Assembly: GCF_004010195.1 (NCBI RefSeq)
Contig: NC_057752.1
Span: forward strand, 8,217,889 to 8,281,888
Source of the DNA: Chiloscyllium plagiosum
Taxonomy: Eukaryota
DNA length: 64,000 nt
Reading direction: 5' to 3'
Within the stretch, counting starts at the first letter, position 1. Every line of letters starts with the position of its first letter. Below are positions 13,301 through 34,120 of the stretch, piece after piece. A program made the position numbers and the translations under genes. The notes under the pieces were generated by a model, which was not told the DNA's origin, did not search any database, and was given only the letters and a program-made list of their open reading frames with translations.

Positions 13301-14858
13301 AGAAATGACAAGAGCAAAAAAAATGCTTTGGCCAGGAACTCTTTGTACAAAAACATAAAGGAAACATGGAACTTGATGACTTTTAAAAAAAAAGATACAA
13401 TTTTAATTACCAAAAGTAATTTCAACTAAATGCACATGTATCACCAAAAATTAACCCTCCAAGTGCTTTGAAACGGGATGGGTATAGAATGTCTATAAGC
13501 AAATATCAGAGAGATTTAAAACTAACCAAGTAAGCAATTTATTTATTTGTTTCTGATAACCTCAACTGTAATTCTAAATAAAGGAAAAATAGAACATTTG
13601 TGGCATACGATTGCTGGTAGAAAAAATAAAAATTATCAGTAATTAAAAAAGTGAATTTCATAAATTGTTGGAGAAGGGAAGAACAGGTAGTTTGCAATTT
13701 ATATTACATTAAATTATGTGCTTTGATAAAGACTGTCAATTCATTACTAATCTTAGAGCACACTTTTTTTGTTTAGTTTATGTAGAGTGAGTCTTACCAT
13801 CAGTACCCCAGGAAATAAAAAAAACAATTTTGTTGCTTCACAAAGCTCAATGTATTTTGAACTTTGAGAGCTCAAAGCTAAGGAACTGTGAACAAGAAAA
13901 CACAAGATAACTTAACGATCAGCAGTAGCTGGGAGGCATTAACCCAAGTTGCTTCAGTGATCGTATTTCAAATGTGTGCATGTTATGTTAGCCCCCTCTT
14001 GCTTCCAGATTCCCTGATGCTGCATTTAAGAGAGCCATTTTTGATTTTAAGTCCCTAACCCCCACCACTCCCCAAAAACGTTCGAGTAAAAAGTCCCATT
14101 TATATTACAGGGCAAAATATCTAGCAGAAGACAGTTATTCACCCGTCTTCATACCCTCCAATTACTGTCCTGACCACAATTAAAGCAGGATTTATTTTGG
14201 TGGTGGGGAGGGAGGGGAAACAAAATGATTTGTTTTTATTGCTGTAAAACAAAAACTCTGGATTTAAAGGTGATTTAAAAACAAGTAACTGCAGAACAGG
14301 CACAATCTTTTTTAACACAAGCGTTGTGTTTTTTTTAAACCGACTTTTTTGTGAAATTAAACCAATTTTACAGAAACAGACAGAGCAACCATAGTGCAGG
14401 CAAAACTATTCCAAGTGCAGCAGCAGGAGAGCTCAAGTTGGTCTGGGCATTGCAATGCGTTGTCAAAAACTTTGCTTTCATTAGTACCAGAGTTTACAGG
14501 GTGAGCAAACAAAAGCAAGACTTCTGCTGACACCAAGTTTTCAAAGCATTCAAAAACAAGGGTTCTGTTGGATTTTTTTTTTGAACATTTGCGACATACA
14601 TAGTGGCAAACTGAAGGGTGGTTTAACTTCAGTATGCTACTATTGCTGAGGTACAATTCTGTACAGGCAGTTTGCCAGTGAGTTCATAAGCCCGCACCAT
14701 TTGAGGCAGGAGTAAAAAGCATCCTCATTTCATAGTTTCGGCAAAGGGTTGCTGATGGTGAGACTCCCTCTTTAAGAATCATATTTAAACTCAATTTTCA
14801 CAATTTCCCTGGGAAGCAACAATGGGAAAATATTAATTTTTCATAAAATCTTCAAACC

Positions 14859-16505
14859 TCAACTCTCTTCTGCACGACAGAGGAACCTCATACTTTGGGA
14901 TGCATTTGGGTAACTGACCATTTGAGTGGTGGTATAACTCATGGCAATTCCTGGCAGTGATTGTGTAACTGCCACAGGTGTAGAGATAGCAAGTGGTGCC
15001 ATTGAAACTGGTGAAGTCATCCCCTGGACATAGGGTGCAGAGATAGAAGCGCTAAGACAAGGAGGACTTTGGGATGTGGCTTCAGAACATAATGCATTAT
15101 GAGCTCGAGCTTGCGCTATCAACTCTTGATGAGAAATGGGTTGTGATCTCAGTGTCTGGTTGCTCAGGGTGGTGTGAGTCTTTACTATGCTACGGTTATA
15201 ATTGGTAACAGTGTGCAAAGCTGGGTGTTGTGTTGGGTCAGCCCCAGTGTTCAGGATCCCCAACTTCACCTGCTTGCGCAGATCTGCATTTTGTTCCAGA
15301 AGGACCTCATTAGTCAGCATTAAGCTTGACACCTGCTTTTTGAGTTCTTCATTGCGCTTTCTGAGCATATGGTTTTCCTCCTCCAAAAAACTGAGTTCAC
15401 CTGGGCGCAGACTGGGAGTGCTGTAATCAAATACTTCAAAACGCAGGCCCTCCACCCTTCTCCTTTTCGGATGCTGGTCGTAATCACATCTCTCTGTCTC
15501 ATAGAGGTCATCCAAACGGTCATATCTACAAATCTCAGGAGAAAGTTCTCTATCTTGTGACGACACTCTTTCTACACTTTTTTTATCATTGTCATCACGT
15601 TTCAAATGCTGGAATTTACATTTGGATCCTCTTCGACATTTGCCCTTTAGAAAGTCACGACAAAATGGGATCTCCTTTGTAATAAGAGGAAGATTAGAGG
15701 GTGAAAGCCCAAAGGTCACAGCCACTGTCTGTTGCAAGTGAGCAGGAAGCTTTCCTGTTTTATTGTAATAATTCTCTTCCCCCTTCGTCCCGTGAATGAA
15801 TGTGCAGTTCTCACGGGTACATTTACTATTCTGAAAGTACTGACAAAAGATTGACTCATGCCGCATGTCACCCACATTGTAGGCCTCAACATTGTCCGGA
15901 TGAAAGTACCTGCAATTCTTACCACGGTTGCAGACATTGCGCAGAAAGTCACGGCAAACATTCCGCTTGCTCTTGCTCACCTCATATTTGCTATTATTGA
16001 CTAAATTATCAGCGTCATCACTTAGATCAGTGTGGTTGGTGACCTCAATATCATCTGGGTGAAAATACCTGCAATTCTTACCACGATTGCAGAGATTGCG
16101 CAGAAAGTCTCTGCAAATGTTCTGTTTGCTTTTGCCAGCCTCATCATTGCCAATATTCACTAAATTATCAGTGTCATTCCTTACATCAGTGAGGTCAGAA
16201 GCCTCAATGTCATCTGGGTGGATATACCTGCAATTCTTACCACGATTGCAGAGATTGCGCAGAAAGTCTCGGCAAATGTTCTGTTTGCTTTTACCAGCCT
16301 CGTCACTGGCAATGTTGACTAAATTATCAGTTTCGTTCCTTATTTCGGCAAGGTCGGAGGCCTCAATATCATCTGGGTGGAAGTACCTGCAATTCTTACC
16401 ACGGTTGCAGACATTGCGCAGAAAGTCTCGGCAAACATTCCGTTTGCTCTTGCCAGCCTCATATTTGCCGCTGTTGACTAAATTATCAGTGTCGTTCTCG
16501 GACAT
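14859..16505 (-). CDS. ZC3H10-like paralogue, 548 aa, with six CCCH zinc fingers (finger 1 present four times), KRRR motif and coiled coil
   Basis: Uninterrupted ORF, colinear with the ZC3H10 at 46608..47810 (CRDFLRNVC, FIHGTK, GLSPS, CRDFLKG.C.RGSKCKF, KRRRV.GLRFE, FLEEEN.MLRKR.EELKKQ, TNEVLLEQNA, ASQSMR); splice acceptor ttctttttcttttgcag just upstream, exon start 16553. Confidence 0.93.
   Translation of the reverse strand: MSENDTDNLVNSGKYEAGKSKRNVCRDFLRNVCNRGKNCRYFHPDDIEASDLAEIRNETDNLVNIASDEAGKSKQNICRDFLRNLCNRGKNCRYIHPDDIEASDLTDVRNDTDNLVNIGNDEAGKSKQNICRDFLRNLCNRGKNCRYFHPDDIEVTNHTDLSDDADNLVNNSKYEVSKSKRNVCRDFLRNVCNRGKNCRYFHPDNVEAYNVGDMRHESIFCQYFQNSKCTRENCTFIHGTKGEENYYNKTGKLPAHLQQTVAVTFGLSPSNLPLITKEIPFCRDFLKGKCRRGSKCKFQHLKRDDNDKKSVERVSSQDRELSPEICRYDRLDDLYETERCDYDQHPKRRRVEGLRFEVFDYSTPSLRPGELSFLEEENHMLRKRNEELKKQVSSLMLTNEVLLEQNADLRKQVKLGILNTGADPTQHPALHTVTNYNRSIVKTHTTLSNQTLRSQPISHQELIAQARAHNALCSEATSQSPPCLSASISAPYVQGMTSPVSMAPLAISTPVAVTQSLPGIAMSYTTTQMVSYPNASQSMRFLCRAEES
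15861..16496 (-). repeat. Coding tandem repeat, 4 x 159 bp (53 aa), each unit one C-x7-C-x5-C-x3-H finger plus linker
   Basis: cctgcaattcttaccacg recurs at 15909, 16068, 16227 and 16386, exactly 159 bp apart. Confidence 0.97.
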
Positions 16506-18451
16506 GATTCCAGATTATTTCTGCGCTACTCAGCCAAGGCTCTCAATAAACAACTGCAAAAGAAAAAGAAGCCAGTTCTTTTACAATGAACAAGAGATTA
16601 ATCTACAAAAGTAACTGTGGTTAATCCTTTTCTCACAAAACATTGTAGTTGTACCTATATTGTTGATTTTTTTAAAACATTAGGAGATGGCAGAAGTTTG
16701 ATAACAAAATGGAGAAGCAGTTTTATTTTGATCAGGAATTTACTATAGTAATGATGGCAAAATTGTCAGCTTTGCCATCATTTCCTTCTGTAACTGACAG
16801 CATTGTCTGAAATTCACATGTACAAAGGATAACATGGAAATTGAGAAGTTGCTATCAGTGATTTTGCATTCCTCCTCTGAAAGAACCATTTGTCTTTTCT
16901 CACTTTTAAAATGATAGGTATTAACGATTTACAGGTGCGTTTCTTTTCTTGATTATGTCAGTGGTACAACAAAATAAGTAATAATCGCTAATAAGATAAT
17001 TATTTTAAAAATGAATTCTTATTGCAATTATACTATAGGGATTTTGAAATAGAGACGTACAATCAGCAGTGGAAACAAACTACTGAAGAAACGTAAAGAA
17101 CAGAGAAAATGAAATGGTGGTGATTAAGCTCACCAGAGCAGAGTTCAGTCTACCCACAATTATACATTATTGTAGCAAATACTATGTAAAGGAATATTGC
17201 AAACCCAACCTTTCACTTTCCACATGAAATTCCATAAGAGCTTACGTCTAATCTACTGTATAAAATTCTGACAGCTAATCATTTCAGACTTGGTCCTCAA
17301 ATTCTAGATTTAAGAAAACAAAAACAAACCACTTTTAACACTTAACACCACAGCTACGAAGATAAACGTTTAACTTAAGTAGTAGGATGAGAATATCTCA
17401 GATGATTAAATGCATTCCTAAATTGCAAACTAGCATATTGCATATACACACAATCATGGCATGTTGAAATTTATATTCATTAAAGGGTCCGCGAGGAAAT
17501 ACTATTGATGGAATTTTATAGATGAACATACATGCTACAGTTTCTAATTCATAAAAGCTAATTTATGAAAACGCAACTGAAAATTTAATGCAAGCAATGT
17601 CGAATTAAGATAAAGTGTCAACTTAAGATTCAAAAGATTCAAAAATTAAACAAAATACAAACAACTCAATTTTCTTCAATATATTTAATATATAGTCAAC
17701 TTCATTGCAAGCTGCTATTGAAATAAAGGCTGGATTCTAATCCCATAATCCATATTACATTTACACATCAACTCTGACTTCAATCTACCTCCTTCACACT
17801 CTTTAATGAGGCAGTAAAACATAGTTCCTTCAATTTTTGCAAAATATTTCCTTCTTTCTAGAATCAAAATAATGGACACTTTTTGTCTTTGATAATCGGG
17901 GGGGGGGGGGAATGCTTTATTTGTTAAAAAAATGTTTTTACCTCACTCCTTCTGATTTCACATCTCCTTTATTGCTAAACTTGTTCCCAAGAATCAATTC
18001 CTCTTTCATGTCAAAAACCTTTTCATCCCTATTCCCATCCTTCAGCACCTCTTAACACTTTACATCTACCAGAAACTTGAGTACTGTTCCCACAATCTGA
18101 GAGGTGGGAAAGGGGATGACTTTTCTGACATTGTTCCAATTTCTAGGCACAAGGCAAAAACATCTTCCTGTCAGTTAGCCAACTGTCTTCACCCCATCAT
18201 CCTTTTAACAACCACAAATCTTAATGTTTATTAATATAGACCTTCTCTGAATTTTCTTTTGTTTTTCCAAAGCTCCAAACATGCAGTCTTCCTACATCTT
18301 TATTATTATTAATGCAAAGTTTATAACCCTGAATAATTAGATGTTTGTTTTTGATTGGCATACACTTGATGGGCCAAAGGACCTTTTTCTGTCTTGTCTA
18401 TCTTTCATGACTTGAAGCTCCTTGCTCTAATTAATTATTTCCAAGGACTTA

Positions 18452-18982: not shown

Positions 18983-21162
18983 TCAAAAGTATTAATTTTT
19001 TATCTTTCATTCTTTGATCCAATTATTACATGCGGGTTAACCTCAGCTTTTCCAATTTCTGTGGTGTCCCATTTAAGGAGACTTAGTGGCCAAGTTCTTA
19101 ACGTTAGAAAATGATCTTGATTTGCACGTTTTATTTGCATTCAAGAATATGGGTCTGATAGCAGCACGTCATTGAAGATAGGAAGTAGTGAATAGCTTTT
19201 ATTTTAATTTATGCTACCATAGCACAAAGTGACAATTATCTAAAACACAAACTGATTTAGTTGCAAAGATATATATATAACTTATCGGTTTAATGCCTCA
19301 AAAGTTCATACAAGAACGCCTCAATTATCTGTCAAATTGCTTCAAAATCAGTTTATCAAACTTTTTTTTGAAAGAAAAAAGGTCCCAAATAATGAATACA
19401 GGTATTGAGTAAAGGAACAGCATGGCTTCCTGCACTGAATACATTTGCCAAGATAATGTTGACAAGTGCCATCAGGCAAAGTTACAAAGGCTGCACTTTT
19501 GGGAGTTCCAATCTTTCAGTTCAGCTCCAAAATTTCTGGTCCAGTTTTTTTGATATCTGAATGAATTTTAATGTTATTATGAAAGACAGGAAGGACATAA
19601 CTTTACTATGTTTTCACCCCCAAGAACTACAGATGGGACAGTATTTTGTACTCCATCTATGTCCTCAGGATTACTGTTTCTTTAAATATAACATAGTGAT
19701 TCAGTCCAGTCAAACAGCATAACAATCAAATCATTCTGCCCATCACTACCAACTGAGTACACAAATGGAAGTTATGATGTCGTACTGAGGAATCAGACAG
19801 GATAATATAGTCCCAGGTTCATCCACAATTTGCATTAATTCTTTTTAAAATCAACCAGGGCAGCAGTGGAGGAATAAAATAAACATACCTCGATAATTCA
19901 AATTAAACTAAAAGCAAGAGTTCTAACCTGACCACTATTAAAAAAAGTGTACACATGAATATGCAGCAAAGACAGGATTAAGCTTGGCAATGTGTTTCTA
20001 CCATTGAATAGTTATCAATACCACCTCAGGATGAGTCATTATCTTTAGGTGCAAGGGGATATAACTGGGCACGACAGAAGGAAAAACAGGATTTTTAGAA
20101 TCATCTCTAAGAATTTTCACACTATAGGGTGCAAGTCAACAATAACTACAAATAGGACGAGTTGTAAAGTTATCTGACATCCAAAGGAGAAAAATGAAAA
20201 ATTTACCCTCCCTCATACCTTTGATTGATCAACTAAAAAACTTACTGCTTTCTCCTGCTCTTGCTCTTGAATGGCAAAACATAGAGCGATCTACAAAGAA
20301 TAATAATATTTGGAAATAATTTTCAGTAATTGTCATTTTTAAAAACAAAAATCACATAATTAGAGTTTTTGTTTTAAAAAGATTCCAATGGTTTAGTAGA
20401 CAAATGTACTAACTGTGTGGCAATAAAGCACGTTTCAGTTTCAATCATTATTTTATTCAAACTGGATTGGAGAATCCATGTCAATGAAGTATAAAACGAA
20501 AGGGGGGGGGGGGGGGGAAGCTTAGGTAGCATGTCGATATTCTAGACTCAGATTTAAAAACAAAGATTGGTGTATTTCTCGCCACTTGGAAAAAAATGCC
20601 AGAAATTGAGCAGTCTTAATACTGTACAGGTCATGTTACCCACAAGAAAAATCGTTTCTGCATGAAGCCAACGGGATGAAGCGGTTTCAAATAATATTTC
20701 AACGATAAATTTGAACCAAAATTCTTTTGTGTCCCATACTTGAAAACGGTGTTTTCGGTATCCTTTAGATGCTCTTGCCTTAGATTTTCATTTAGATTGT
20801 TTTGTGTTCAATCAATCAATTCCTTGCTTTCATGCCAGTTATAACATAATAATATTACTGGACACGAATTCCTTCATTCCGAAGAACAAATCCGTTCTTA
20901 GGCCTACCGGAATTCTGACAGAAACTCGCACGAAATCGCACTGTTGACAGCTCTGGTGGCGGAAAGTTCTCGAACTTGCTACGAGGCTTCATTACACTCT
21001 AGGCCTCAACGGATTTACTCAAAATGATGCAACTGTCGGCGTATAAATAGAAGTAGGGAACTTTTTTAAAAAAAAAGTAACTACAGAAATAAATAATTAC
21101 ACTCAACCAATCCCGGAATAAGACCGATATATAAAAATAGAAAGAAACAGGGCCACATTTAC

Positions 21163-21242
21163 CTACACGGTGTAAGCCTTTTTTTATCCTCTAAGTCCTC
21201 CAAGCACAACGAATATGGACTCGGGTCCTCCGAGACAAGAGC
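21163..21242 (-). other. Putative non-coding first exon of the ZC3H10 paralogue (5' boundary uncertain), in a CpG-enriched region
   Basis: Minus strand gctcttgtctcggagga...atattcgttgtgcttggagga...accgtgtag|gtaaat is homologous to 33485..33569 and ends at a GT donor. Confidence 0.7.
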
Positions 21243-22005
21243 ACCCGTTGAAGACGCTATTGAAACCAGTCTACAGCCATTGTTTAATGAACAGTAACCG
21301 CTCAGCAAACGTTTCCCATCTTATCACAAACTTTCCTTTTTGTTCTTTCTTCCCCGACTTCGATATTTCCTTAAAACGTTTAAGATATTTAACTTTTTTC
21401 AGTTCTGAACAAAGGTCTTTGACCTGAAACGTGAATTCTCTATCTACAGACACTGCCAGAACTCTCAGAATCACTATGAAGCTGAAGGAGGCCATTCGGC
21501 CCATCCTGCCGCCACCACCACATTGCCACGCAGTGCACTTCATAGCATAACTAACTCGCTGTGTCAAAAAAATCACATCGCCCTTGCTTTATTTGCATAT
21601 CACTTTAAATCTATGCCATCGTTCTTTTTCTCTATGAGCAGGAACAGCTTCTCCCTATCCACTCTGTCTCCGCCCCGTCATAATTTTTAAACTGCAAGGG
21701 GAACAGTACCAACGTTTCCAATCCATCCTCATAACTCACCTACAGATTTACACTCAGTGCCACGTACATATTTTCGACATTTCTGTTCAGTAGTACTGCA
21801 TCACAATTCCATTTCATCTTTCACCTCTTACTTTTCAACAATGGCTTTTTTTCCTTTTAAGTGTGAGGGTATCATAAGCTTTAACAACTGATGGATACTG
21901 ACACCCTTCTGGATTCATCTCTTTCCATTTCTTTGACTCCATCCCTCCTTCCAGATTTCCAGAAGGCATTTAATAAAGGGCCATGTAAAACATTATTGTA
22001 GAAAA

Positions 22006-22215
22006 GGGCTGAAAAATGTGTTGCTGGAAAAGCGGAGCAGGTCAGGCAGCATCCAAGGAGCAGGAGAATTGACGTTTCGGGCATAAGCCCTGAAGAAGGG
22101 CTTATGCCCGAAACGTCGATTCTCCTGTTCCTTGGATGCTGCCTGACCTGCTGCATTTTTCCAGCAACACATTTTTCAGCTCTGATCTCCAGCATCTGCA
22201 GTCCTCACTTTCTCA
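22006..22215 (+). mobile_element. Short fold-back element with hammerhead core and 14-bp TSD
   Basis: TSD attattgtagaaaa (21992..22005, 22216..22229); CTGAAGA-a-gggcttatgccc-GAAA-cgTC at 22090..22117. Confidence 0.85.
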
Positions 22216-22229
22216 ATTATTGTAGAAAA

Positions 22230-22800
22230 TACAAGCTCATGATGTAGGTGGTAATAATATTGGCATTGACTGAAAATTGGCTAACTGAATGGAAACAGTG
22301 TAGGCATAAATGGTTAATTTCTGATTGGCAAGATGTTCCAGCATCTGCAGTCATTGTTTTTACCTCGTAATGGATGGTGTGTTACAAGGATCAGTGTTGA
22401 GGCCTCAATCTTTTACAATGTATATAAATAAGGGTTTGATTGCTAAATTTGCTAATGACAAAGGTAGGTTGCAAAGTAAGAGCACATAAAGAAGTGACAA
22501 AGGGGTATAGAGAGGTTAAATGAGGGGGAATAGATCTGGCAAATGGATATTAATGTAGAAAAACATGAAATTGTCCATTTTGGCTGGAAGAATTAAGCAT
22601 GTTGTTTAAACAGTGAGAAATTGCAGAACTCTGAGATGTAGACAGATCTGAGTGTCCTCGTGCATGAGTTGCAAGAGGTTCATGTGCACATACATTAAGT
22701 AACTAGGAAAGCTAATAGAATGTGACTGTTTATTGCGAGGGGAATGGAATACAAAAGTAGGACAATTATGCTTCAATTACAAGGGCGTTGGTGAAACCAC
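22230..22800 (+). mobile_element. Degenerate CR1 RT fragment
   Basis: Remnants of QGSVL.P..F, KFA.D and W.M..NV.K...VHFG motifs. Confidence 0.65.
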
Positions 22801-24809
22801 ATAGAATCGTAGAGATATACAGCACGGAAACAGACCCTTCGGTCCAACTTGTCCATGCCGACCAGAATTCCCACCCCAATATAGTCCATGATTTCCCATA
22901 ATTTGCAGTACCTTTGTCATATGTGCACTCTTCTTATCTGGTACATTCTCCTTCCTTCCACCTTGGTGCCTAGACATTAGGAGAAAATTTCATGCAAAAT
23001 CACAGGCCCCTCATCCAATTCTACTGGTATCACACATTTGCAATTGAACTTGTTGAAGCTTGGTGGCCCTTGGTGAACATTTTTAAAGTTCTCCAAAAGG
23101 TTACCTCAGCTCTCCAAAGAACTCTCGTAAATTTGTATCTATTCCTCAAATTCATAAATCTCATGAGTCATGTTACACAAAACATTTTCAATGAAAATTA
23201 GTTCTGAGTAAAAGCAACAGTCTCTTAATCTATGGACATGCAAAATTCCACTGCTCCTGCTCAGTGAAAATGGTAGTTGCCAGATATCAGGCCAGGATTT
23301 CTGGATTGAGGACTCTGTCACCATTTTGTTAAAGGTCCATAGTTCTTCCATCTCGATCACAAATCACAGTCTCATTTTGATTTGAGAAGAATATTCACCT
23401 TATGCCTAAATTCATTGAGGAAGGAATTGAATTGTCTTTTGTCTCGTTTGAGAAAATTGCTTCAAAGTTACAATGCCATAAAAAATCTTTGACAATTTTA
23501 TTACAGTTGGAAGACATATTTATATTTCAGGATTATGTAGAAAAATTGGAAAATATGAAACAATTTGGACATTTTATTTAGATTAAATCCAGGAATGAGA
23601 GTAACAACCTAATGTGTGCTGTAAGTCGTTGCTGTTTATCGAAAAATGATTTTAAAGAAAATAGCCAAGCAAAGCTTTCAAGGAATTCAGAGGTATATTG
23701 TCTAATAATTTAGACAGTCTGGCTTTGAAGTGACTAAGGGGTCTCTATACTAGTGGTTGTCTAATAAACCTTTCTTTTAGGAAATCAAATCCCACTGAGA
23801 AGGCTGTAAAGTTTCTAAATAAAGAGGCAGTAAAATTTGCTTGCAAACCCACAGAGAAGCTAGAGAAATAAGAAATGTGATTACTGAACAAACACTAATT
23901 ACAATGAGGAGGCCAGAAGGACTGAAATGACAGAGTTTTCTCAGAATATTGAATGAGTCAGAAACAAAACCAGAAATTGTTGGAAAAACTCAAAGTCTGG
24001 CAGCATAGATGGAGAGAAAGCAGAGCCAACACCTCGCATCTAGTTCTTCTCTTCTCTTGCATAACAGCAATAGAGTTCCCTTGACACTCACCCCACCATA
24101 CCATCATCCATATCCAAAGATCGTTACAGATAATGATTCGACCAACTCCAACAGTTTGCCACCACCATAAACATATTCTCATCATCTCCATTGTCAGCCT
24201 TCTGTAGGGAACAATCCTTCCAGGACATCCTGGTCCACTCCTCCTCCATTTCTACACATCTGAAATATTGTGTAAAGTCTTGTTGCTTTATTTAAGGAAT
24301 GGTGTAAATTGTTAGATATTGTTCAGAGATCATTTACTGGACTAATACTGGAATAGGTATGTTGTCTTCTGAGGAGATGTTGGACAGGCTAGACTTTTAC
24401 CTGCTGGCATTTGAAAGTAAGAGATGATTTGATTGAAACATTTAAGATCCTGAGATATCTTGACAGGGTGCATGTAGAAAGAATGTTTTCTCTTGTGAGA
24501 CATGCTAAAACTAGAGGTTACTGTCACTGGAAACCAACTGCTATGTGTGGATCAACAGTGGTAAGCGAGAGTCAGGATGCAAACATAGTTATCTGTAACT
24601 GCAAATTATAGTCTGAGCTGTATAAAAATAAATTTTATTTATATTTTCGATTGCGATCTGAAATGGGAAAACAATTGTTTTAAAAACCAAAGATAGTTGA
24701 AGGATTGCCGCACTTTTTAAAAGCCAATAACCTGACACTCATTGAAGTACTGTTTGTACTTCAACTGCTTGGTTTGCAGATGAGTTGGAGCTAAATGGTG
24801 TGTTTGAAA

Positions 24810-25415
24810 TGTAGAATGAAGTATAAAAGTAGGGAGGTTTTGCTAAAATTATGCAAGACACTAGTCAGACAACAACTGGAATACTGTGAACAGTTTTGGG
24901 ACCCTTCTCTGAAGAAAAATACACTGGCATTGGAGGCAGTCCAGAGGAAGTTCACTAAATTGATCCTGGATGTGGAAGGATATTCTTGAGGAGAGGTTGC
25001 AGAGGTTGGGCCTGTACTCATTGGAATGTAGAAGAATGAAAGCTGACCTTATTGAAACATACAAGATTCTTAGGAGACCTGACAGGGTAGATGCAGGGTA
25101 GATTTACCTTGTGGGAGAGTCTAGGATCAGTGGGCATAATGTCAAAATAAGGGATTGCAGATTTAAGACAGATGAGGTGGAATTTCTTCTTTCAGAGGAT
25201 AGTGCATCTTTGGAATTTTTTATCACAGAGGGCTGTCGAGGTTGAGTTGTTAAGTATTTTCAAGGCTAAGATAAACAGACTTTTAACCTGTAAGGGAATC
25301 AAGGGTTATGGGGATTTGGTAGGAAAATGGACTTGAGGATTATCAGATCTCACTGCATGGCAGAGCAAACTTGATGGGCTGAATGGCCTTCTGCTCATAC
25401 ACCTTATGGTCTTGT
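24810..25415 (+). mobile_element. CR1 LINE 3' fragment
   Basis: YKSREVLLKLCKTLVRQQLEYCEQFWDP; tail gggctgaatggccttctgctc...cttatggtctt. Confidence 0.85.
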
Positions 25416-25788
25416 GCATGGAACTTTGGTTGGCCAAGTGTAGTTGATTGATCTGTGAGCTAGTGTCTCGTTATCAATAACAAAGGCCTGCCAACATCTA
25501 CATTGATTGGTTCCCAGATTTCTGAACAGTGTGTGGGGATGAATGTTTTAGCAGAATCGCTGGGCCTCTGGAGGAACAGAGGCTGTTTTTCTTCTGTAGT
25601 AAAAAGCACTTGGGTCTGAAGGCAGCCAGTTTATTTTCTTTTTTTTTATCCAGAAGTGCTCTTAAACATAACAATTTTTTTTCCCATCACCAAGTTACCC
25701 ATGATATTTTTTCACCTGTTAATGTCCACCAGTAAATCATCCGCGTTCTCCTAATGATTAAGTTACATGCAAAGCCCATTAAGGGAAA

Positions 25789-26179
25789 CATGATGTGGAG
25801 ATGCCGGTGTTGGACTTGGCTGGACAAAGTTAAAATTCACACGTCACCAGGTTATAGTCCAACAGGTTTATTTGAAAGTACAAGCATTTGGAGCGCTGCT
25901 CCTTCATCAGGCAGCTAGTGGGGCAGGTACATAGGACACAGAATTTATTAATAAAAGCTCAAAGTGTCATACGACTGATGCAATGCGATAGGATTTACAT
26001 ATTAATCAATAAAAACCTGCATCCCCATTCTAAGTGATTCAATACTTAACAGCCATCCAGGTTTGTCGAGTACATTGCATCAGTTGTATGACACTTTGAT
26101 CTTTTACTTATAAATTCTGTGTCCTATGTACCTGCTCCACTAGCTACCTGACAAAGGAGCAGCACTCCAAAACCTTGTA
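25789..26179. mobile_element. Second family of fold-back element with degenerate hammerhead motifs and 12-bp TSD
   Basis: TSD cattaagggaaa (25777..25788, 26180..26191); inverted arms 25878..25985 and 26073..26180; minus arm reads CTGATGA-a-ggagcagcgctcc-aaatgctt. Confidence 0.8.
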
Positions 26180-26830
26180 CATTAAGGGAAATGCAGACCA
26201 TCAGAATTGAGGGAGAGGTAAGGAGAGGGAAAGGGGACTAAATCAAGTTGGAGTTGGAAGGTGAGACAGCCAGTTTATTTCCCATTTCCAGTTTCTGTCA
26301 GCTGTGACTTTTAATTGATAAGTCAAAGACCTTTATAGGTGGGAACCAGTCACCTTGTGCCTCCTGTAAACAGGTGAAAGTATCTGGAGAAAAAAAGATG
26401 AAAAAGCAGTCTTCTGATCAGCACAAGATTCATCTCCACAAGCCTTATGCACAGGGATCACTGAACTGTCTTCCGATTGTTTGCCTCAGCCTATAACATT
26501 TATGTTTTTTGTGTGTGGGGGGCGTGGGGGAGGGATGTTAAAGGGGTTACAGTTTTAACTATGAGAGTTATATTTGGACAGTTCATTATTGCTTATCTGT
26601 ACTTAGAAGAATATTTATTTATTACAAATAAATAGTTATTTAAGTATGGAAACCTGGTCCTGCTTTCTGTCAACCTTTGTCTAAAAGACAGGTAAATTGG
26701 GGAATTCTGCGTACTTCTTAAAATCTTTAATTCTAGTGACAACGCCAGGACTAGTGAAGCTTGATTTCTGACATGCTACCCCAGTGAGATGTACCAGCTG
26801 TAAAATAAACCTGTACAGACTTTCAAGTAA

Positions 26831-27104
26831 ACGGCACGGTGGCACAGTAGTTAGCACTGCTGCCTAACAGCACCAGAGACTTGGGTTCAATTCCCACCTC
26901 AGGCGACTGACTGTGTGGAGTTTGCACATTCTCCCCGTGTCTGCGTGGGTTTCCTTCCACAGGCCAGGTGAATTGGCCATGCTAAATTGCCCGTAGTGTT
27001 AGGTGAAGGGGTAAATGTATGGGTGGGTTGTGTTTCGGCGGGTCAGTGTGGACTTGTTGGGTCGAAGGGCCTGTTTCCACACTGTAAGTAATCTAATCTA
27101 AATC
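26831..27104 (+). mobile_element. HE1-type V-SINE
   Basis: tRNA-like A/B boxes (ggtggcacagtagttagc, gggttcaattccc), V-domain gtgtggagtttgcacattctccccgtgtctgcgtgggtttcc, CR1-like tail. Confidence 0.85.
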
Positions 27105-27199
27105 CATGTGATTTTATCTGTTACTTACCAATAATACAAGAAACACGACATGATCAATGTTGATTTTTCTTAAGAAACAAAAGCAGTGATGCATGCTTG

Positions 27200-28640
27200 A
27201 AAACCACAGAAGGAAATCTTAGACAAGACTTGAAGCTGTGCCAAAGTCACATTTTTTTTCTGGGGTCCCGGTGTAAAAGTCATTACAGGGGATGTGAGCC
27301 TGTTGAGGCAGGGTTGGTTCAAAATTGGGCTGTAAAGATACTAACTGCAACAGCGAGACCAAAAATAATTGCATTTAGTCAATCCAACACTCTCAACTAT
27401 TGTGCCCAGACAGATTCTATGCCAAAGGTAACTTCAAAGATGATGCTGTATTGCACCTCTAAGAAGATACAATTCCATCAATCAACCCTACCAAAAATGC
27501 AGTATTCACATACAAGAAAAGCTCAAGCATGAGCTGGACATTATGGGACATAATGACATTATTTGGCTTGTACATCACACTGGTGCAGTTCTATTCAGTG
27601 TGTGCTTAAGAAAGATGGAACACTCAGGACATGTTTGGACCCAAGACATCTGAATCTCTTTCGAAAAGGAATGCACGCACAAAATTCCAATGCAAGATGA
27701 ATTGAATCGCAGGAGCTAAATTCTGCTCTGGTCTGGATACCCAACATGGATGTTGACTATTCAATTGGCCAAAAAATCTCAAAATCGCTACTTTCAGACA
27801 CCACGTGAAAGACATTGCTTCCAGAGACTACCTTTTGGCCCGTCATTCTAGATCAGTTCTAGCAGTGTATGGATTGAATTGCAGAAAATATTCCTGGATG
27901 TATAGGTATTACCAATTTATACTGTTGTGATGGTACAAACAAAAAAAAAACATTGCCAAAATCTGCATTCATTAATGACAGCAGATCGTGGTGAAGAATG
28001 TGTCTTCAACAGTAAAAGGTGTCAAGTAAATGCAGGTCAGATCAAACTTTTTGCCTTTATCTAGTTATGTAATGGGATCTGTCCTGACCCAGGCAAAGTC
28101 AAAGATATAGGACACACATTTCAAAGATGCTCTACAGGGATTTCTCAGATATTTACAAGTTCCTAGCTCAGAACATATAATACTTTTCCAATAAAGCATT
28201 GTCTTTAAGAGAACCCTTAAGGAAATACATACTATATGTATAACATATATGTATGACACTTTGATCTTTTATTTATAAATTCTGTGTCCTATGTCAATGC
28301 ATGCTTGAATCACTGTAAAACTGGCATTGTCAGTGGAAACCTGTATCCCACAGTGTTATGACGCAAGGATTAAGATAGTCCTGGAAGCCAATGTGTTTCA
28401 GAAGGAGCATGCATCCAAATATTTTAATCCAAAGATCTATCACAAGTACAATTCAACAATTCCAACATAGAGTATAAAATGCTTGTTCTATTATTTGGTG
28501 TCACAAGATTGCATGGGTATCTGTTTGCGAGAAACTTGTTTGGTACATCACTGTGGAAACTGATCTCAAACTATTGAAACTGATTTGGCGCAAACCACTT
28601 CAAGTACACCACCTGGATTACAACGACTCCTGTTAGGTAG
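27200..28640 (+). mobile_element. Decayed Ty3/Gypsy LTR retrotransposon pol relic (RT and RNase H)
   Basis: Frameshifted translations KKDGTLRTCLDPRHLN, AGAKFCSGLD, FQTPRERHCFQRLPFG, FGVTRLHGYLF, ITVETDLKLL..IWRKPL, PPGLQRLLL. Confidence 0.8.
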
Positions 28641-28907
28641 TGACAGAAATCAATGGTGCTCTGCCCCTGGTCCCTAACCTGGGCACAGTAACCCTGCCCT
28701 AACCTGAGTACAACAGGCCCCCTAGAGCCAAAAACAGAAGTTGCTGGAAAAGATCAGCAGATCTGGCAGTATCTGTGAAGAGAAATCAAAATTAACGTTT
28801 CTGGACTGGTGACCCTTCCTCTGAACATGGGCTTACTGTAACCAACAGAGATTATGTTTTGAAGGCAAGTTGGGATAACTCTGCCAAGCCCTTACCTGTC
28901 TAAGTTC

Positions 28908-30050
28908 TCATAGAACAAAGAATATTACAGTGCAGTACAGACCCTTCCGCCCTCGATGTTGCACCAATCTTTGGAACCAATCTGAAGCCCATCTATCCTA
29001 CACTATTCTATTTTCATCTATATGTTTATCCAATGAGCATTTAAATGCCCTTAAAGTTGGCGAGTCTACTACTGTTACAGGCAGTGCGTTCCAAGCTCCT
29101 ACCACTCTCTGAGTAAAGAAACTAGCTCTGATATCTATCCTAGATCTATCACCCCTCAATTTAAAGCCATATCCCCTCCTGCCAGCCAACACCATCCGAG
29201 GAAATGGGTCTCACTATCCACCCTATCTAACCCTCTGGTTATCTTATTTTTGTCAATTAAGTCATCTCTCAACCTCCTTCTCTCTCACGAAAACAGCCTC
29301 AAGTCCCTCAGCCTTTCCTCACAAGACCTTCCCTCCATACCAGGCAATACTCTAGTAATTCTCCTCTGAACCTTTTCCAAAGCTTCCACATCCTTCCTAT
29401 AATGCGGTTACCCTCATCCAACTGTTTGGTCATCATCTCAAAGAACTCAATAAGGTTTGTGAGGCACATCCTACCCTTCACAAAACCATGTTGACGATCC
29501 CTAATCAACTTATTCCTATCTAGATGATTACAAATCTTATCTCTTATAACCTTTTCCAACACTTTACCCACAACCGAAGTAAGGCTCACTGGTCTATAAT
29601 TACCAGGATTGTCCATACTCCCCTTCTTGAAAAAGGGGTCAACATTTGCTATCCTCCAGTCTTCTGACACTATTCCTGTGGACAATGATGACATAAAGAT
29701 CAAAGCCTAAGACTTTGCAATCCCCACCCCCAGCTTTCAAGGGAATCCTAGGATAAATCTCATCCGGCCCAGGGGACTTATCTATTTTCACAATTTCCAT
29801 AATTGTTAACACCTCCTCCTTGCGAATGTCAATCCTGTCTAGTCTAGTAACCTGTATCTCAGTATTCTCCTCAACAACATTGTCATTTTCCAATGTGAAA
29901 ACTGACAGAAAATATTCATTTAGCGCTTCCTCATCTCATCAGACTCCATGCACAACTTCCCACTACTATCCTTGATTGTCCCTTTCGCTAGTCATTCTTT
30001 TATTCCTAATATACCTATAGAAAGCTTTAGGGTATTTCTTGATCCTACCT
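28908..30050 (-). mobile_element. CR1 LINE with internal deletion (same subfamily as 1650..3408)
   Basis: ORFs 29639..29893 (KSPGPDEI), 29308..29703 (NYRPVSLTS) and 28998..29195; RT core missing at the junction near 29407. Confidence 0.88.
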
Positions 30051-30079
30051 CAGTTACAGGACAAACACCTTGAAAATCA

Positions 30080-31780
30080 AGAAAGGCTTTGTGCGTGGGC
30101 AATTGTGTCTTACTAAATTAATTGGATTTTTAAAAGAAGTGATTGGTATGTGTATGGAATGAGCTGCCAGAAGAAGTGGTGGAGGCTGGTACAATTGCAA
30201 CATTTAAAATACATTTGGATGGGTATACGAATAGGAAGGGTTTGGAGGGATATGGGCCGGGTGCTGGCAGGTGGGACTAGATTGAGTTGGGGTATCTGAT
30301 CGGTATGGACGGGTTGGACCGAAGGATCTGTTTCCATGCTGTACATCTCTAAGACTATGACTCTATGGTGAAGAGGATTAATGAAGGCAGAGCAGTGAAC
30401 ATTGTCTATGCAGACTTCATTAAGGCGTTCGACAAGGTTCACATGGTAGATTGGTTGACAAGAGCTGAAAATGTGTTGCTGGAAAAGCGCAGCAGGTCAG
30501 GCAGCATCCAAGGAACAGGAGAATCGACGTTTCGGGCATAAGCCCTTCAGGTTAGATCATGTCAAATACAGGGATAACGAGCCATTTGGATACAAAATTG
30601 GCTCAAAGGTAGGAGACAGAGGGTTTTGGTAGAGGGTTGTTTTTCGGACCGGAGGCCTGTGACCAGTAGTTTGCCACAAGGACCAGTGCTGGGTCCACGG
30701 CTTTTGTCATTTATATAAATGATTTGGATGTAGATACAAGAGATATGTTTAGTAAGTTTGCAGATGACACCAGAATTGGTGGTGAATGGACAGGTAAAAA
30801 CAATGACTGCAGATGCTAGAAATCAGATTCTGTATGAGAGTGGTGCTGGAAAAGCACAGCAGTTCAGACAGCATCCAAGGAGCAGTAAAATCAATATATC
30901 GGGCAAAAGCCCTTCATCAGGAATACCTGTGTAATGGACAGTGAAGAAGCTACCTCAGAGTACAACGGGACCGTGATCACATGGGCCGAGGAGTGGCAGG
31001 TAGAGTTTAATCTAGGTAAATGTGAGGTGTTACATTTTGGTAGGGCAAATCAGGGCAGGACTTATACACTTAATGGTAAGGTCCTTGGGAGTTTTGCCAA
31101 ACGAAAAGACCTTGGAGTGCAGGATCATAGTTTCTCGAAAGTGGTAGACAGAGTAGTGAAGAAAGCGTTTGGTGTGCTTGCCTTTATTGGTCAGTGCATT
31201 GAGTTTGGGAGCTGGGAGGTCATGTTGCAGCTGTATAAATCATTGGTATGGCCACTTTTGGAATACTGCGTTCAATTCTGGTCTCCCTACTGTTGGAAGG
31301 ATGTTGTGAAACTTGAAAGGGTTCAGAAAAGATTTACAAGGATGTTGCCAGGGTTGGAGGGTTTGAGCTATAGGGAGAGGGTGAATAGGCTGGAGCTATT
31401 TTCCCTGGTCTGTTGGTGGCTGAGGGGTGACCTTATCAAGGTTTATAAAATCTTGAGAGGCATGAATCAGGTGAGTAGCCAAGGTCTTTTCCCCAGGGTA
31501 GGGGATTCTAAAACTAGATGTCATGGGGTTAAGGTGAGAGGGGAAAGATTTAAAAGGGACCTTAGAAGCAACATTTTCATGTGGTGTGTGTATGGAATGA
31601 ACTGCCAGAGGAAGTGATGGAGGCTGGTATAATTACAGCATTTCAAAGGCATCTGGATGGGTATACGAATAGGAAGGGTTTTGAGGGATATGGGCCAAAT
31701 GGGACTAGATTAATTTAGGATATCTAGTTGCATGAACGAGTTGGACTGAAAGGCCGGTTTCTGGCCTAAATATCTCGATG
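30080..31780 (+). mobile_element. CR1 LINE RT and 3' end with nested insertions (CR1 tail ~30145..30365; short hammerhead-family elements ~30462..30548 and 30794..30932)
   Basis: KFADDT and ORF 30934..31617; insert 30794..30932 flanked by aatggacag (30785..30793, 30933..30941). Confidence 0.85.
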
Positions 31781-33484
31781 AATCTATGAAGAATGAAGAT
31801 AGTGCATGATTGACATGCAGATGTGGTACTGTTGAATTTATACATAGGATAGAAGGTCAGAATCATAAATACTACACAGGAACAGAGAAAGCCAAAATAT
31901 GCAGTGAGCCTAAATGCTACAAAGTCACTACACCAAATAAAGCAACATTGAGGGGAAACAAAAGCCAACTCAGGGAACTGTAAAATACACCAATTGTGCA
32001 AAACATACATGCAGAAATCAACCTGGAAATGAAGGTGTGAATGGTCATCAGGACAACAAACAGTGCACTAAATACACACGTGACTTGAACACACCGACAA
32101 GTCAAGAACACCTAAGTGCGAATCCAAATCTCCAGAAGGTTATACCATCATAAGATTTGGAAGGATTGTCAAGCCACCAAATATGTCATTTAGACTCTTA
32201 ACTTTTTTCAATTACTGTTTCTATTTTAATACATTTGCGGCTACCCTAATGTAGATGTACTTTCACTCTGTGAGTAATTTTTATCTTGGGTGGGGGGGGT
32301 GGGTTTAAAAAGTAATGTGTGATTTTTGCTTCAAGACCTGATTTGTTTTAAAGAGCTGGATGTGCTCATGTGCCAAGGACTAGAATAAAATTACATGATT
32401 AACTGTTGCCCAGCCAAAAGCAAACTAGAATCAGAATCCATACAATTATCTACAACTGCAGTTACAGTAGTCTTATTGAGATTTTCAAGTAAATGGAATC
32501 CATGTGACTTAATCTGCATTGTAGATTAATAATACAACAGCTTCAATCACCACCCTCAACACCCCTTCTCCTTCCAACACAGTATCTTGTGCAAATGCAA
32601 GAGATACAAAACTTACCCTTCTCATTGTCCAAGCCTCCTTGCAATCCATCAAAATACCAATTTACGCACTGTATATGTTTTTTTTCTGTTTAGTACTCTG
32701 TATTTTCCTTTCTTACTCTCTACTGGGGAGACCAAACCTAGATTGGGTGACTGCTTTGTGGAATATATCCATTCAGGCCAGAAGCATGACCTCAGATTCC
32801 AGATTGCCTGTAATTTTCATTCTCCACTGTTCTTCCAGTTTGAACTCTGTCCTTAGCCTCCGACAGTGATCCAATGAAGGTGAATGTAAGCTCGAGGAAC
32901 AACATGCATCTTTTGATTGGGTACTTTGCAGCCTTTCGGTGTTCAAAAATTTTAACTCATAACTACTGTTTTCATTTTTCTCCAATGTAATTGGGGATTA
33001 TTCGACTTTCCTATTCACACCTACTGTAAGTCCATCATTTGTTTCCTTACACGCATTTCATTTTTACTTGCACCATCATCCTTTTTTGTCGTTTTTTTGT
33101 CGTTTACTCCCGCCTTCCACCTTTCACAGGCTTTTCCTTTTGTGTAAGCCCCCTCCCACTTTTCTTGTCTCTGTACAGGTACTTGTTATTTGCTTAAAAC
33201 CTGTTACTTCTGAATTCTTCCCCAGTTAAAGGTCACTAACCTGAAACGCTTCTCTCTGATTTTTTTTCGTTTCTCAAAAGATGGTGCAAGACTTGCTGAG
33301 TATTTCCTTGTATTGTTTCAGGTTTTCAAATTATTAACATCTATGCTGTTGGGGACTGTTCAATGTTATAGATATTAGAAAATTTATGGGCGAGGGAATT
33401 CAGGTTAAATTTTGAATGTAAAATAGTAACCGAGCTGACTGAAAGGAATTCAGGTTACGAATCGCAACTCATTGGCGTTAAGCC

Positions 33485-33563
33485 GCTCTTGTCTGGGAGG
33501 AGCTTTTTTTTGATACTCGTTGTGTTTGGAGGAGTGAAGGAGTGAAAGAGCTGAACCGTGTAT
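33485..33563 (+). other. Putative non-coding first exon of ZC3H10 (5' boundary uncertain; donor at 33560 GTATGT or 33564 GTAAAT)
   Basis: CpG-enriched context, reverse CCAAT (attgg) at 33471, homology to the minus-strand block 21157..21242. Confidence 0.7.
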
Positions 33564-34120
33564 GTAAATACATTCCTTTTTTTTTTGTCTGTTTTGTATC
33601 CGTTTTGATTTTTACTCTTGATTATTCCGACAATTTAAATATTCAGAATGAAGGTTTAATTTAGTTTTCGTGTGTACGCCGTTGTTTCATGTAGCACAAA
33701 GTTAAGGCCTAGAAATCCCGTAACAGCCTTCGAATCTCTCGACTAGCTTGTGACTGATATACGGTGTAATGTACAGTAAAATGATCGTTAAATCAGAATT
33801 TTACGAGCATTGTTTTTGAAATTTCATAGATCATTCATCCATTTGCAGCACTAAGGAATCAATATTTACTTCTGATGAAACTTGAATAGACTCTTGTTTT
33901 CTGCCGAAATGCTTCTTTCGCGTACAAAGTGGACAAGTAAGAGGTTGAAAGAACACAGCAAGCCAGGTAGTATGTACTCCACCTCCTGATGCTGTCTGGC
34001 TTGCTGTGTTCTTCCATCTCCTGCTTGTCTACTTTGGATTCCAGCGTTTGCAGTTTTTTTTTGTCGTTTTTTGAGTACAAAAGCTTATACTTCTAAATTG
34101 CCTTGAGCATAACAAAATGG

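What the first reader, a model, noticed from the sequence alone, without database searches (positions are those of the whole stretch)
21157..33569. Head-to-head inverted duplication: the two ZC3H10 genes retain homologous non-coding first exons and splice sites
Seen: minus 21242..21157 (gctcttgtctcggagga..atattcgttgtgcttggagga..accgtgtaggtaaat) aligns with plus 33485..33569 (gctcttgtctgggagga..atactcgttgtgtttggagga..accgtgtatgtaaat). The acceptor-to-ATG segments also align (tggctgagtagcgcagaaataatctg versus tggctgagaagcacagaaatagtctg), and ttgttgcttccca occurs after both stops (14810..14822 minus, 47850..47862). The ~12 kb between the first exons is largely retroelement debris. Inference: a DNA-level inverted duplication, not a retrocopy. 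Survival of these UTR blocks despite strong protein divergence suggests conserved cis-regulation, possibly autoregulatory sites.
Basis: partly seen in the sequence, partly recalled or inferred. Interest (0 to 1): 0.7.

Follow-up and report, generated by a model that had tools for sequence, protein, structure and literature searches.

The report
Back-to-back shark ZC3H10 gene copies
Two back-to-back copies of the gene regulator ZC3H10 in a shark still share a recognisable non-coding front exon and splice sites, because they belong to an old cluster of copies, likely on the X chromosome, that were duplicated as DNA; this is a known kind of arrangement, and self-regulation through the shared block is untested.

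Summary
The blocks share 66 of 89 columns (0 of 200 shuffles reach the score), are not a dispersed repeat, and lie in the window's most CpG-rich patches. RNA contigs of a close relative splice the minus-strand gene from 21163, as predicted, but through an unnoticed 72-nt middle exon (20290-20219). DNA-level duplication is supported. A simple two-gene inversion is not: the pair ends an array of five local copies (one broken), all keeping the acceptor block, with five promoter-exon cassettes. Trees reject the two window genes as sisters (p=0.002), a sister copy exists in chimaera, and the canonical plus-strand gene is likely the flipped one. The chromosome is likely the shark X. At least 69% of the spacer is repeat. 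Evidence for special conservation is modest: the whole cassette is 58% identical, like synonymous sites (60%), although the 3'UTR bodies and introns no longer align. The ZC3H10 RNA motif GCAGCGC is exact only in two neighbouring copies, not in these two genes. The genes are in RefSeq; I found no paper on them. This scan already noted the cluster, its mirrored first exons and its X location in other shark and skate genomes.

The parts
14859..16505 (-). Gene A coding sequence: six-finger ZC3H10 paralogue, 548 aa, one coding exon
   Evidence: ORF; Pfam CCCH hits; 19-member 90% cluster named ZC3H10-like in sharks and rays; covered by RNA contigs
14810..14822 (-). 13-mer after the A stop codon, remnant of the proximal 3'UTR shared with B
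   Evidence: 22 of 200 unanchored; 1 of 5000 anchored shuffles
16508..16608 (-). A branch/acceptor-to-ATG block; coding exon starts at 16553
   Evidence: 75 of 102 columns with B; joint 16553/20219 with CT..AC ends in run X8; also kept in copies C, D, E
20219..20290 (-). A middle non-coding exon, 72 nt, with a 17-codon upstream ORF starting in it; no homologue found in B
   Evidence: joints in X8 and X9, sequence, uORF list, search in B intron
20998..21242 (-). A promoter-exon cassette: 3' end of the 5'-most exon seen (block 21242-21157), donor used after 21163, and about 160 nt of homologous intron start
   Evidence: CpG o/e 0.97-1.07
21243..33484 (.). Spacer of 12.2 kb, at least 69% interspersed repeat, with CR1-type remnants
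33485..33713 (+). B promoter-exon cassette: block 33485-33569, donor likely after 33559, homologous intron start
   Evidence: a 320-nt contig of run X8 ends at 33559, indirect; CpG o/e 0.95-1.05
46507..46606 (+). B branch/acceptor-to-ATG block; acceptor AG at 46559-46560, followed at once by a 14-codon upstream ORF
   Evidence: junction itself not seen
46608..47810 (+). Gene B coding sequence: canonical three-finger ZC3H10, 400 aa, one coding exon
   Evidence: shortest branch in trees
46708..46799 (+). Likely 92-nt GT-AG intron inside the B coding exon (exitron); removal shifts the frame and would leave 51 aa
   Evidence: RefSeq 358-aa isoform X2 in four carpet-shark entries; contig breaks at 46799 in X2 and X8 and a 151-nt piece 46678-46828
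47850..47862 (+). 13-mer after the B stop codon

Best explanation
The look-alike blocks are the homologous ends and splice donors of non-coding 5' exons of two back-to-back ZC3H10 paralogues, members of an old local array of ZC3H10 copies in cartilaginous fishes that likely lies on the shark X chromosome. Shown: both coding frames are intact; gene A is spliced from the block (21163) through a 72-nt exon to its single coding exon in RNA contigs of a close relative; all five local copies keep the acceptor block; the cassette occurs five times, always upstream of ZC3H10 copies and in CpG-rich patches; the spacer is mostly repeats. Inferred: the whole unit (promoter, 5' exon, intron, coding exon) was copied as DNA several times, starting before the chimaera split (421 Ma by PMC3692497), with A in place before the shark-ray split (306 Ma); one inversion set the canonical gene B against the others, and B is likely the flipped copy; retroelements later pushed the two front ends 12 kb apart, and each gene is now likely driven from its own CpG-rich promoter patch. 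The block likely survives because it is the promoter-proximal exon end and splice donor, under mild constraint and free of insertions in a slowly evolving lineage, not because it is a special switch.
For: Alignment significance. Junctions 21163/20290 in 2 of 2 organism-C runs laid and 20219/16553 in 1 of 2. Single genomic hit for each block, while the same search returns 35-43 matches at 64-89% identity for 3 of 3 spacer intervals. Profile search: five strong cassette loci in 264 kb (the profile was built from them), none in 200 kb more, including the copy on C40. The five most CpG-rich of 254 windows lie on the two cassettes. Array. Orthologues of A, C and D in sharks and rays on contigs of the same length as those bearing B; three chimaera ZC3H10 proteins with consecutive accessions on one scaffold. 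A+B as sisters rejected, p-AU 0.002 and 0.003. ESYT-like 5' exons on the minus strand downstream of copy C, as in a fused bird model. X: chr43 inferred as X in this species and X sizes of 16.4-28.8 and 73.0 Mb (10.1101/2025.02.26.637739); shark X matches human chr12 (PMC10620051). Cassette identity 152 of 261 (58%) versus four-fold sites 53 of 88 (60%).
Against: No start site was mapped and contigs give no strand; A's contig has 34 unaligned letters beyond 21654, so a further upstream exon is possible. The B junction was not seen among the 15 joints shown (428 hidden). Junction evidence is from organism C (about 97-98% identical), not from the window's own species; run X1 shows intron depth near exon depth and no junction among the rows shown, and X21 laid nothing. 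A and C have long branches that may attract; the A+C fork has only 83/82 support. Other ESYT-like exons lie on the plus strand at 7.90 Mb, so the local order may be rearranged or misassembled. A neutral simulation at the four-fold distance predicts an alignable 3'UTR (minimum score 38, observed 30), so the cassette is better kept than other non-coding DNA. C43 = chr43 = X is an inference without male/female depth data.
Confidence: 0.75

Rival explanations
1. The cassettes look alike because promoters in this array are copied over one another by gene conversion or small segmental copying, so their likeness says little about constraint or about the age of the genes.
For: The promoter before D and the one 13 kb upstream of pseudogene E are 100% identical over 1487 bp, while D and E themselves match at 421 of 622 aligned positions. 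B is closer to every other cassette (120-139 of 212) than they are to each other (98-112 of 212), even the tandem pair D1/D2. Conversion is documented for the head-to-head CYP1A pair (PMC3199271).
Against: A and B cassettes are only 58% identical, no closer than their synonymous sites, so no recent conversion between them. The star pattern around B is also what a slowly evolving B gives, and B has the shortest protein branch. The D1/E1 identity may be an assembly duplicate.
Confidence: 0.25
2. The conserved UTR blocks are autoregulatory elements: ZC3H10 proteins bind a GCAGCGC-type site just before the start codon of the derived copies, and a frameshifting exitron in the canonical copy, to set the dose of the family.
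For: Exact GCAGCGC, the published ZC3H10 RNA motif (PMC6321451 table; GCAGCG in PMC11612968), lies at the aligned UTR position in copies C and E, with one mismatch in A and D; background is 17 sites on both strands of 264 kb, about 0.002 per 50 nt. The CpG in it is kept in 4 of 5 copies in a CpG-poor region. The B exitron has RefSeq and contig support.
Against: Gene B has two mismatches and gene A one, so neither gene of this finding has the exact motif. The five sites are one ancestral event, and several motifs and blocks were looked at. The 5' exon block holds no such motif; the DNA motif TYCCNG occurs once in B and not in A, with 0.29 expected by chance. No stable or shared RNA fold: z from -1.5 to +1.3 in 6 of 6 pieces. 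No binding data.
Confidence: 0.15
3. One inverted duplication of the canonical gene B made gene A directly.
For: The two genes are neighbours, head to head, with homologous cassette, acceptor and proximal 3'UTR; A keeps the C-terminal tail that C and D have lost; A has the highest four-fold identity to B, 53 of 88.
Against: Both AU tests reject A+B (p 0.002, 0.003); A groups with C in both trees; A shares its strand with C, D, E and the ESYT-like 5' exons.
Confidence: 0.12
4. The block is a dispersed repeat or a chance likeness.
For: It is short and partly low in complexity; the genome search did not find the known diverged copies either, so very old scattered copies could be missed.
Against: 0 of 200 and 0 of 300 shuffles; one hit each in 3.56 Gb; the shared 14-mer occurs 1395 times against 1197 for its control; low contig depth in the block's bins against 10^4-10^5 at repeats; every copy sits before a ZC3H10 gene.
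Confidence: 0.02

Closest known systems
CYP1A1/CYP1A2 head-to-head paralogue pair (PMC3199271, passages read)
   Same: Old (300-350 Ma there) local duplicates kept head to head across a long spacer (23 kb there, 12 kb here); gene conversion is an issue in both.
   Different: Here the pair is the end of a five-copy array, the genes are likely not direct sisters, the proteins differ in finger number, and a shared enhancer was not tested.
Vertebrate ZC3H10 (PMC6911170 passages; PMC13375009 abstract)
   Same: Gene B has the three CCCH fingers, coiled-coil region and Pro/Ala-rich tail; 64-76% identity to most tetrapod, coelacanth and chimaera proteins near the top of the list; ESYT-like neighbour as in birds.
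   Different: Cartilaginous fishes keep four intact local copies with 6, 3, 3 and 2 fingers plus one on another chromosome; no function is known for the extra copies.
Duplicated conserved non-coding elements, dCNEs (PMC1896008, passages read)
   Same: Non-coding sequence still alignable beside paralogues after several hundred million years.
   Different: dCNEs there are mostly enhancers kept since whole-genome duplication; this is transcribed exon end, donor and intron start of a local duplicate, and is no more conserved overall than synonymous sites.
RefSeq 'zinc finger CCCH domain-containing protein 10-like' models of sharks and rays
   Same: The proteins of A, B, C and D types are already predicted, many with several transcript records per protein.
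   Different: The shared promoter-exon cassette, the array's history and the motif pattern are not part of those names.

Membership tests
DNA-level (tandem/segmental) gene duplicate | Introns and splice sites kept at homologous positions | tested here: met
   Donor, intron start and acceptor align; A is spliced at them
DNA-level (tandem/segmental) gene duplicate | Promoter-side sequence copied and copy lies next to its parent | tested here: met
   Cassette before A, B, D (twice) and E within about 102 kb
Retrocopy | Loss of introns, UTR exons joined to the coding exon | tested here: not met
   A has two 5'UTR introns; intronic sequence is homologous
Direct inverted duplicate pair (A made from B) | The two genes are each other's closest paralogues | tested here: not met
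   p-AU 0.002 and 0.003 on 24 rows; long branches are a caveat
Bidirectional-promoter gene pair | Start sites within about 1 kb on one CpG-rich promoter (threshold recalled, from no call) | tested here: not met
   Blocks are 12.2 kb apart with separate CpG-rich patches and low CpG between; start sites themselves not mapped
Interspersed repeat | Many dispersed genomic copies | tested here: not met
   versus controls 77-79
Duplicated conserved non-coding element | Conservation clearly above the neutral rate | tested here: inconclusive
   Above 3'UTR and introns, equal to four-fold sites; A's 5' exon differs from organism C at 19 of 475 positions against 47 of 2123 in intron pieces
Duplicated conserved non-coding element | Regulatory activity in a reporter assay | not testable with these tools
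   needs an experiment
Structured non-coding RNA or UTR element | Rfam match or stable conserved fold | tested here: not met
   0 Rfam matches in the window at gathering score; 6 of 6 folds within the shuffle range
ZC3H10 autoregulatory site | Exact GCAGCGC in the gene's own transcript at the conserved block | tested here: not met
   Not exact in A or B; exact in C and E
ZC3H10 family | CCCH fingers plus coiled coil; groups with named ZC3H10 proteins | tested here: met
Elasmobranch X-linked genes | Half read depth in males outside the pseudoautosomal end | not testable with these tools
   Only indirect: chromosome number, contig sizes and neighbours of human 12q13 type

The most novel reading that the evidence does not exclude
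The X-linked ZC3H10 array of cartilaginous fishes is a self-tuning dosage circuit: portable promoter-exon cassettes are swapped among single-exon coding units of 2, 3 and 6 fingers (C and D sharing one promoter as alternative last exons), the derived copies carry the family's own RNA motif next to their start codons, and the canonical copy is switched off by a frameshifting exitron, on a chromosome whose dose is thought to decide sex.
Probability: 0.08. Interest if true: 0.7.

Novelty: new member of a known kind. Interest (0 to 1): 0.36.

Why it matters
As it stands this is an ordinary kind of locus, a head-to-head paralogue pair like CYP1A1/CYP1A2, whose proteins are already predicted in RefSeq. 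Its value is as an undescribed, very old family expansion of a gene that is mostly single in bony vertebrates, on the likely shark X, and as a natural test of what survives in a promoter and 5'UTR over 300-400 million years and after 12 kb of retroelements are pushed between two front ends. If the motif and exitron prove to be feedback sites, it would be a first case of ZC3H10 controlling its own family, with a possible link to X-dose effects.

Tried and rejected
Rfam: 0 matches in the window. RNA folding of 6 pieces: none beyond shuffles. Homology outside the blocks: 3'UTR bodies (11 of 60 and 7 of 60 shuffles as good), rest of intron 1, intron before the acceptor and sequence upstream of the blocks all at shuffle level. 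A homologue of A's middle exon in B: one AT-rich 50-nt match at 42252 beat 60 of 60 shuffles under one scoring and 52 of 60 under the other, has no acceptor AG behind it, and was dropped. Upstream ORFs of A and B are not at homologous places. The cassette was not found near the C40 copy or within 30 kb upstream of C. A metagenome scan for ZC3H10 loci of other vertebrates gave 1 distant locus of 129 candidate stretches, not used, so no cross-species DNA of the cassette beyond organism C was available. No listed run was on record as RNA among the holders; raw-read run X21 laid nothing and X20 gave depth under 1 at the exons: no test. The first B lay was swamped by repeats and hid 428 joints. The careful 48-row tree did not finish; its quick tree is reported and a 24-row careful tree was used for tests. 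An exitron search used a wrong acceptor and was redone. ZC3H10 or ESYT1 did not occur in the supplements held for PMC12318234 (1 file) and PMC11406177 (2 files); gene tables not held as text, and the closed supplements and Table 2 of the bioRxiv preprint, may list them. No structure or complex prediction was run.
Full report
Observation. The window holds two ZC3H10-type frames facing apart: A, 16505-14859 minus, 548 aa with six CCCH fingers, and B, 46608-47810 plus, 400 aa with three. The acceptor blocks give 75 of 102 and 0 of 200 shuffles. With softer scoring the homology runs about 160 nt into the intron, to a shared motif ending at 20998 and 33713 (0 of 300 shuffles); I call this 250-nt unit the cassette. 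The 13-mer after the stops fails an unanchored test (22 of 200) and passes an anchored one chosen afterwards (1 of 5000).

Not a repeat, not an RNA family. Each block has one match in the 3.56-Gb genome. The same search returns 35, 43 and 41 matches, down to 64% identity, for three spacer intervals, though it missed the known diverged cassettes. Rfam gives nothing and six pieces fold no better than shuffles. The five most CpG-rich of 254 windows lie on the two cassettes (o/e 0.89-1.07, median 0.25); G+C is about 40%, so these are CpG-undepleted patches rather than classical islands. The spacer is at least 69% repeat (8396 of 12242 bases).

Transcripts. Contigs of two runs of organism C, about 97-98% identical to the window, join 21180 to 20295 with eleven letters between; since the five letters before the donor equal the five before the acceptor, the junction is 21163 to 20290. 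One of the two runs also joins 20219 to 16553 with canonical ends. A's exons and 3'UTR have contig depth near 40 against 0-7 in non-repeat intron bins in those runs. For B, a 320-nt contig covers 33254-33559 and ends at the first of two tandem donors; the joint itself was not among the rows shown. Contigs give neither start nor strand, so 'first exon' remains likely, not shown.

The array. A protein search of the genome finds further copies upstream on the same contig, all on the minus strand: C (279 aa, three fingers, no tail), D (217 aa, two fingers) and a broken two-finger copy E, plus one copy on C40. All five local copies keep the acceptor-to-ATG block. The cassette occurs before A, before B, twice before D and once 13 kb upstream of E. 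None lies near C, and no window between C and D reaches CpG o/e 0.8 (0 of 120); RefSeq labels C isoform X1 and D isoform X2 in a bamboo shark, so C and D likely share 5' exons, untested here. A, C and D each form 90% clusters of 19, 16 and 13 members over sharks and rays. Chimaera has B, D and a further two-finger copy with consecutive accessions on one scaffold; no six-finger chimaera protein came up among 7 hits (lengths 301-959 only). Splits are dated 421 Ma and 306 Ma in PMC3692497 (abstract).

History. Trees put A with C, not B (87 in the quick 48-row tree; 83/82 in the careful 24-row tree), and AU tests reject A+B (p 0.002 and 0.003). I had seen the quick tree before testing, and A and C are long branches. 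A bird gene model fuses ZC3H10 to downstream ESYT-like sequence; those ESYT-like exons lie on the minus strand about 104 kb beyond C, so the minus copies have the bird-like orientation and B is likely the inverted one. Other ESYT-like exons on the plus strand at 7.90 Mb weaken this.

Chromosome. Identical proteins are named Chiloscyllium by NCBI, on contigs of the same length as C43. A preprint infers chr43 as the X of the whitespotted bamboo shark and gives X sizes of 16.4-28.8 Mb and up to 73.0 Mb (10.1101/2025.02.26.637739, passages and section 18); ZC3H10-bearing contigs of sawfish (16.4), white shark (28.8) and devil ray (73.1) match these extremes. The shark X matches part of human chromosome 12 (PMC10620051, passages) and chicken chr33 (PMC11406177, passages); ESYT-like and aquaporin-like neighbours fit 12q13, a placement I recall rather than tested. 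At 8.2 Mb of 16.4 Mb the locus is far from a terminal 1.5-Mb pseudoautosomal region. X-linked genes are female-biased in embryonic gonads (PMC12318234, section 10); ZC3H10 is not named in the passages or supplement text searched.

Why the block survives. Over the whole cassette A and B are 152 of 261 identical (58%), against 53 of 88 (60%) at four-fold sites. A neutral simulation at that distance reaches the cassette's score in 43% of 200 runs, and the core block's score in 7%; but it also predicts an alignable 3'UTR (20 of 20 runs score 38 or more; observed 30), and at distance 0.85 no run of 200 reaches either score. So the cassette is better kept than 3'UTR and introns, about as well as synonymous sites. 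Against organism C, A's 5' exon differs at 19 of 475 positions and intron pieces at 47 of 2123, which gives no sign of strong constraint, with little power for the block alone. Mild constraint from promoter and donor function in a slow lineage is enough. Conversion is a live rival: the D1 promoter has a 1487-bp exact copy upstream of E while D and E match at only 421 of 622 positions.

Autoregulation. The published RNA motif is GCAGCGC or GCAGCG (PMC6321451 table row; PMC11612968 passages, which also reports AGUGCAG). It is exact just before the start of C and the aligned place in E, has one mismatch in A and D and two in B; background is about 0.002 per 50 nt. This is a lead, one ancestral event found among several motifs tried, and it fails for the two genes of the finding. 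The DNA motif TYCCNG (PMC6911170 passages) is at chance level. A likely 92-nt exitron in B would cut the protein to 51 aa and is a second handle for feedback.

Novelty and verdict. Searches for ZC3H10 with shark (3 papers, listings only), with paralog and duplication (2), exitron (0), autoregulat (4) and cartilaginous-fish terms (top 10 of 3965 without the gene) showed no paper on this locus (the library lacks most subscription papers). The proteins are in RefSeq. The closest known arrangement is CYP1A1/CYP1A2 (PMC3199271 passages); dCNEs are a looser parallel (PMC1896008 passages). Earlier AI notes of this scan describe the same cluster in other genomes; I had reached the array, X and shared-exon readings before seeing those, and took the conversion and short-spacer ideas from them. 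Verdict: real, a new member of a known kind, interest 0.36.

Noticed in passing
window 46708-46799 (+): Likely frameshifting exitron inside the B coding exon, matching RefSeq 358-aa isoform X2 of carpet sharks and contig breaks in two runs; the same donor motif recurs in the finger repeats of A.
   Followed up: partly
G000:C43:8116709-8117545 and 8148190-8148840 (minus; L012, L016): Intact tail-less copies C (three fingers) and D (two fingers), conserved across sharks and rays; C has no cassette or CpG-rich patch of its own and likely shares D's 5' exons.
   Followed up: partly
G000:C43:8150363-8151849 and 8183821-8185307: 1487 bp of the D promoter region are 100% identical to a stretch upstream of pseudogene E, with a further 390 bp at 97%: recent copy, conversion or assembly duplicate.
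   Followed up: partly
G000:C43:8170787-8170100 (minus; L018): Broken two-finger copy E with stops and frameshifts, still keeping the acceptor block and an exact GCAGCGC.
   Followed up: partly
G000:C40:25397195-25398130 (L006): A GC-rich 311-aa two-finger ZC3H10 copy on another chromosome, with orthologues in rays and chimaera; no cassette found in 60 kb around it.
   Followed up: partly
L023:4068-4625 (minus), about 4 kb beyond the window's end: First coding exon of an aquaporin-like gene with an NPA motif, recognised by eye, not scanned.
   Followed up: no
G000:C43:7897436-7900399 (+) and 8008987-8013215 (-): ESYT-like exons of one domain lie on opposite strands 110 kb apart: inversion, two genes or misassembly.
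   Followed up: no
window 6751-7500; G000:C43:8157139-8158100 and 8284389-8286100: Further CpG-rich patches without the cassette; possible unannotated promoters.
   Followed up: no
window 22918-23950: A 1-kb stretch with one full-length 89% copy on C25 and only fragments elsewhere: a low-copy mobile or duplicated element.
   Followed up: no
window 21480-21668 (minus): The RNA contig of gene A runs upstream through CR1-like remnants, so its 5' end may start in retroelement-derived DNA.
   Followed up: no
proteins P0194, P0197: Salamander ZC3H10-like proteins of about 325 aa form a fast-evolving clade inside the amphibian group, a separate divergent form.
   Followed up: no
window 39011-39985 (+) and 43380-44102 (-): Long ORFs in the B intron with no Pfam match; they look like LINE-type and Penelope-type remnants (labels recalled) and are high-copy in contigs.
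   Followed up: partly
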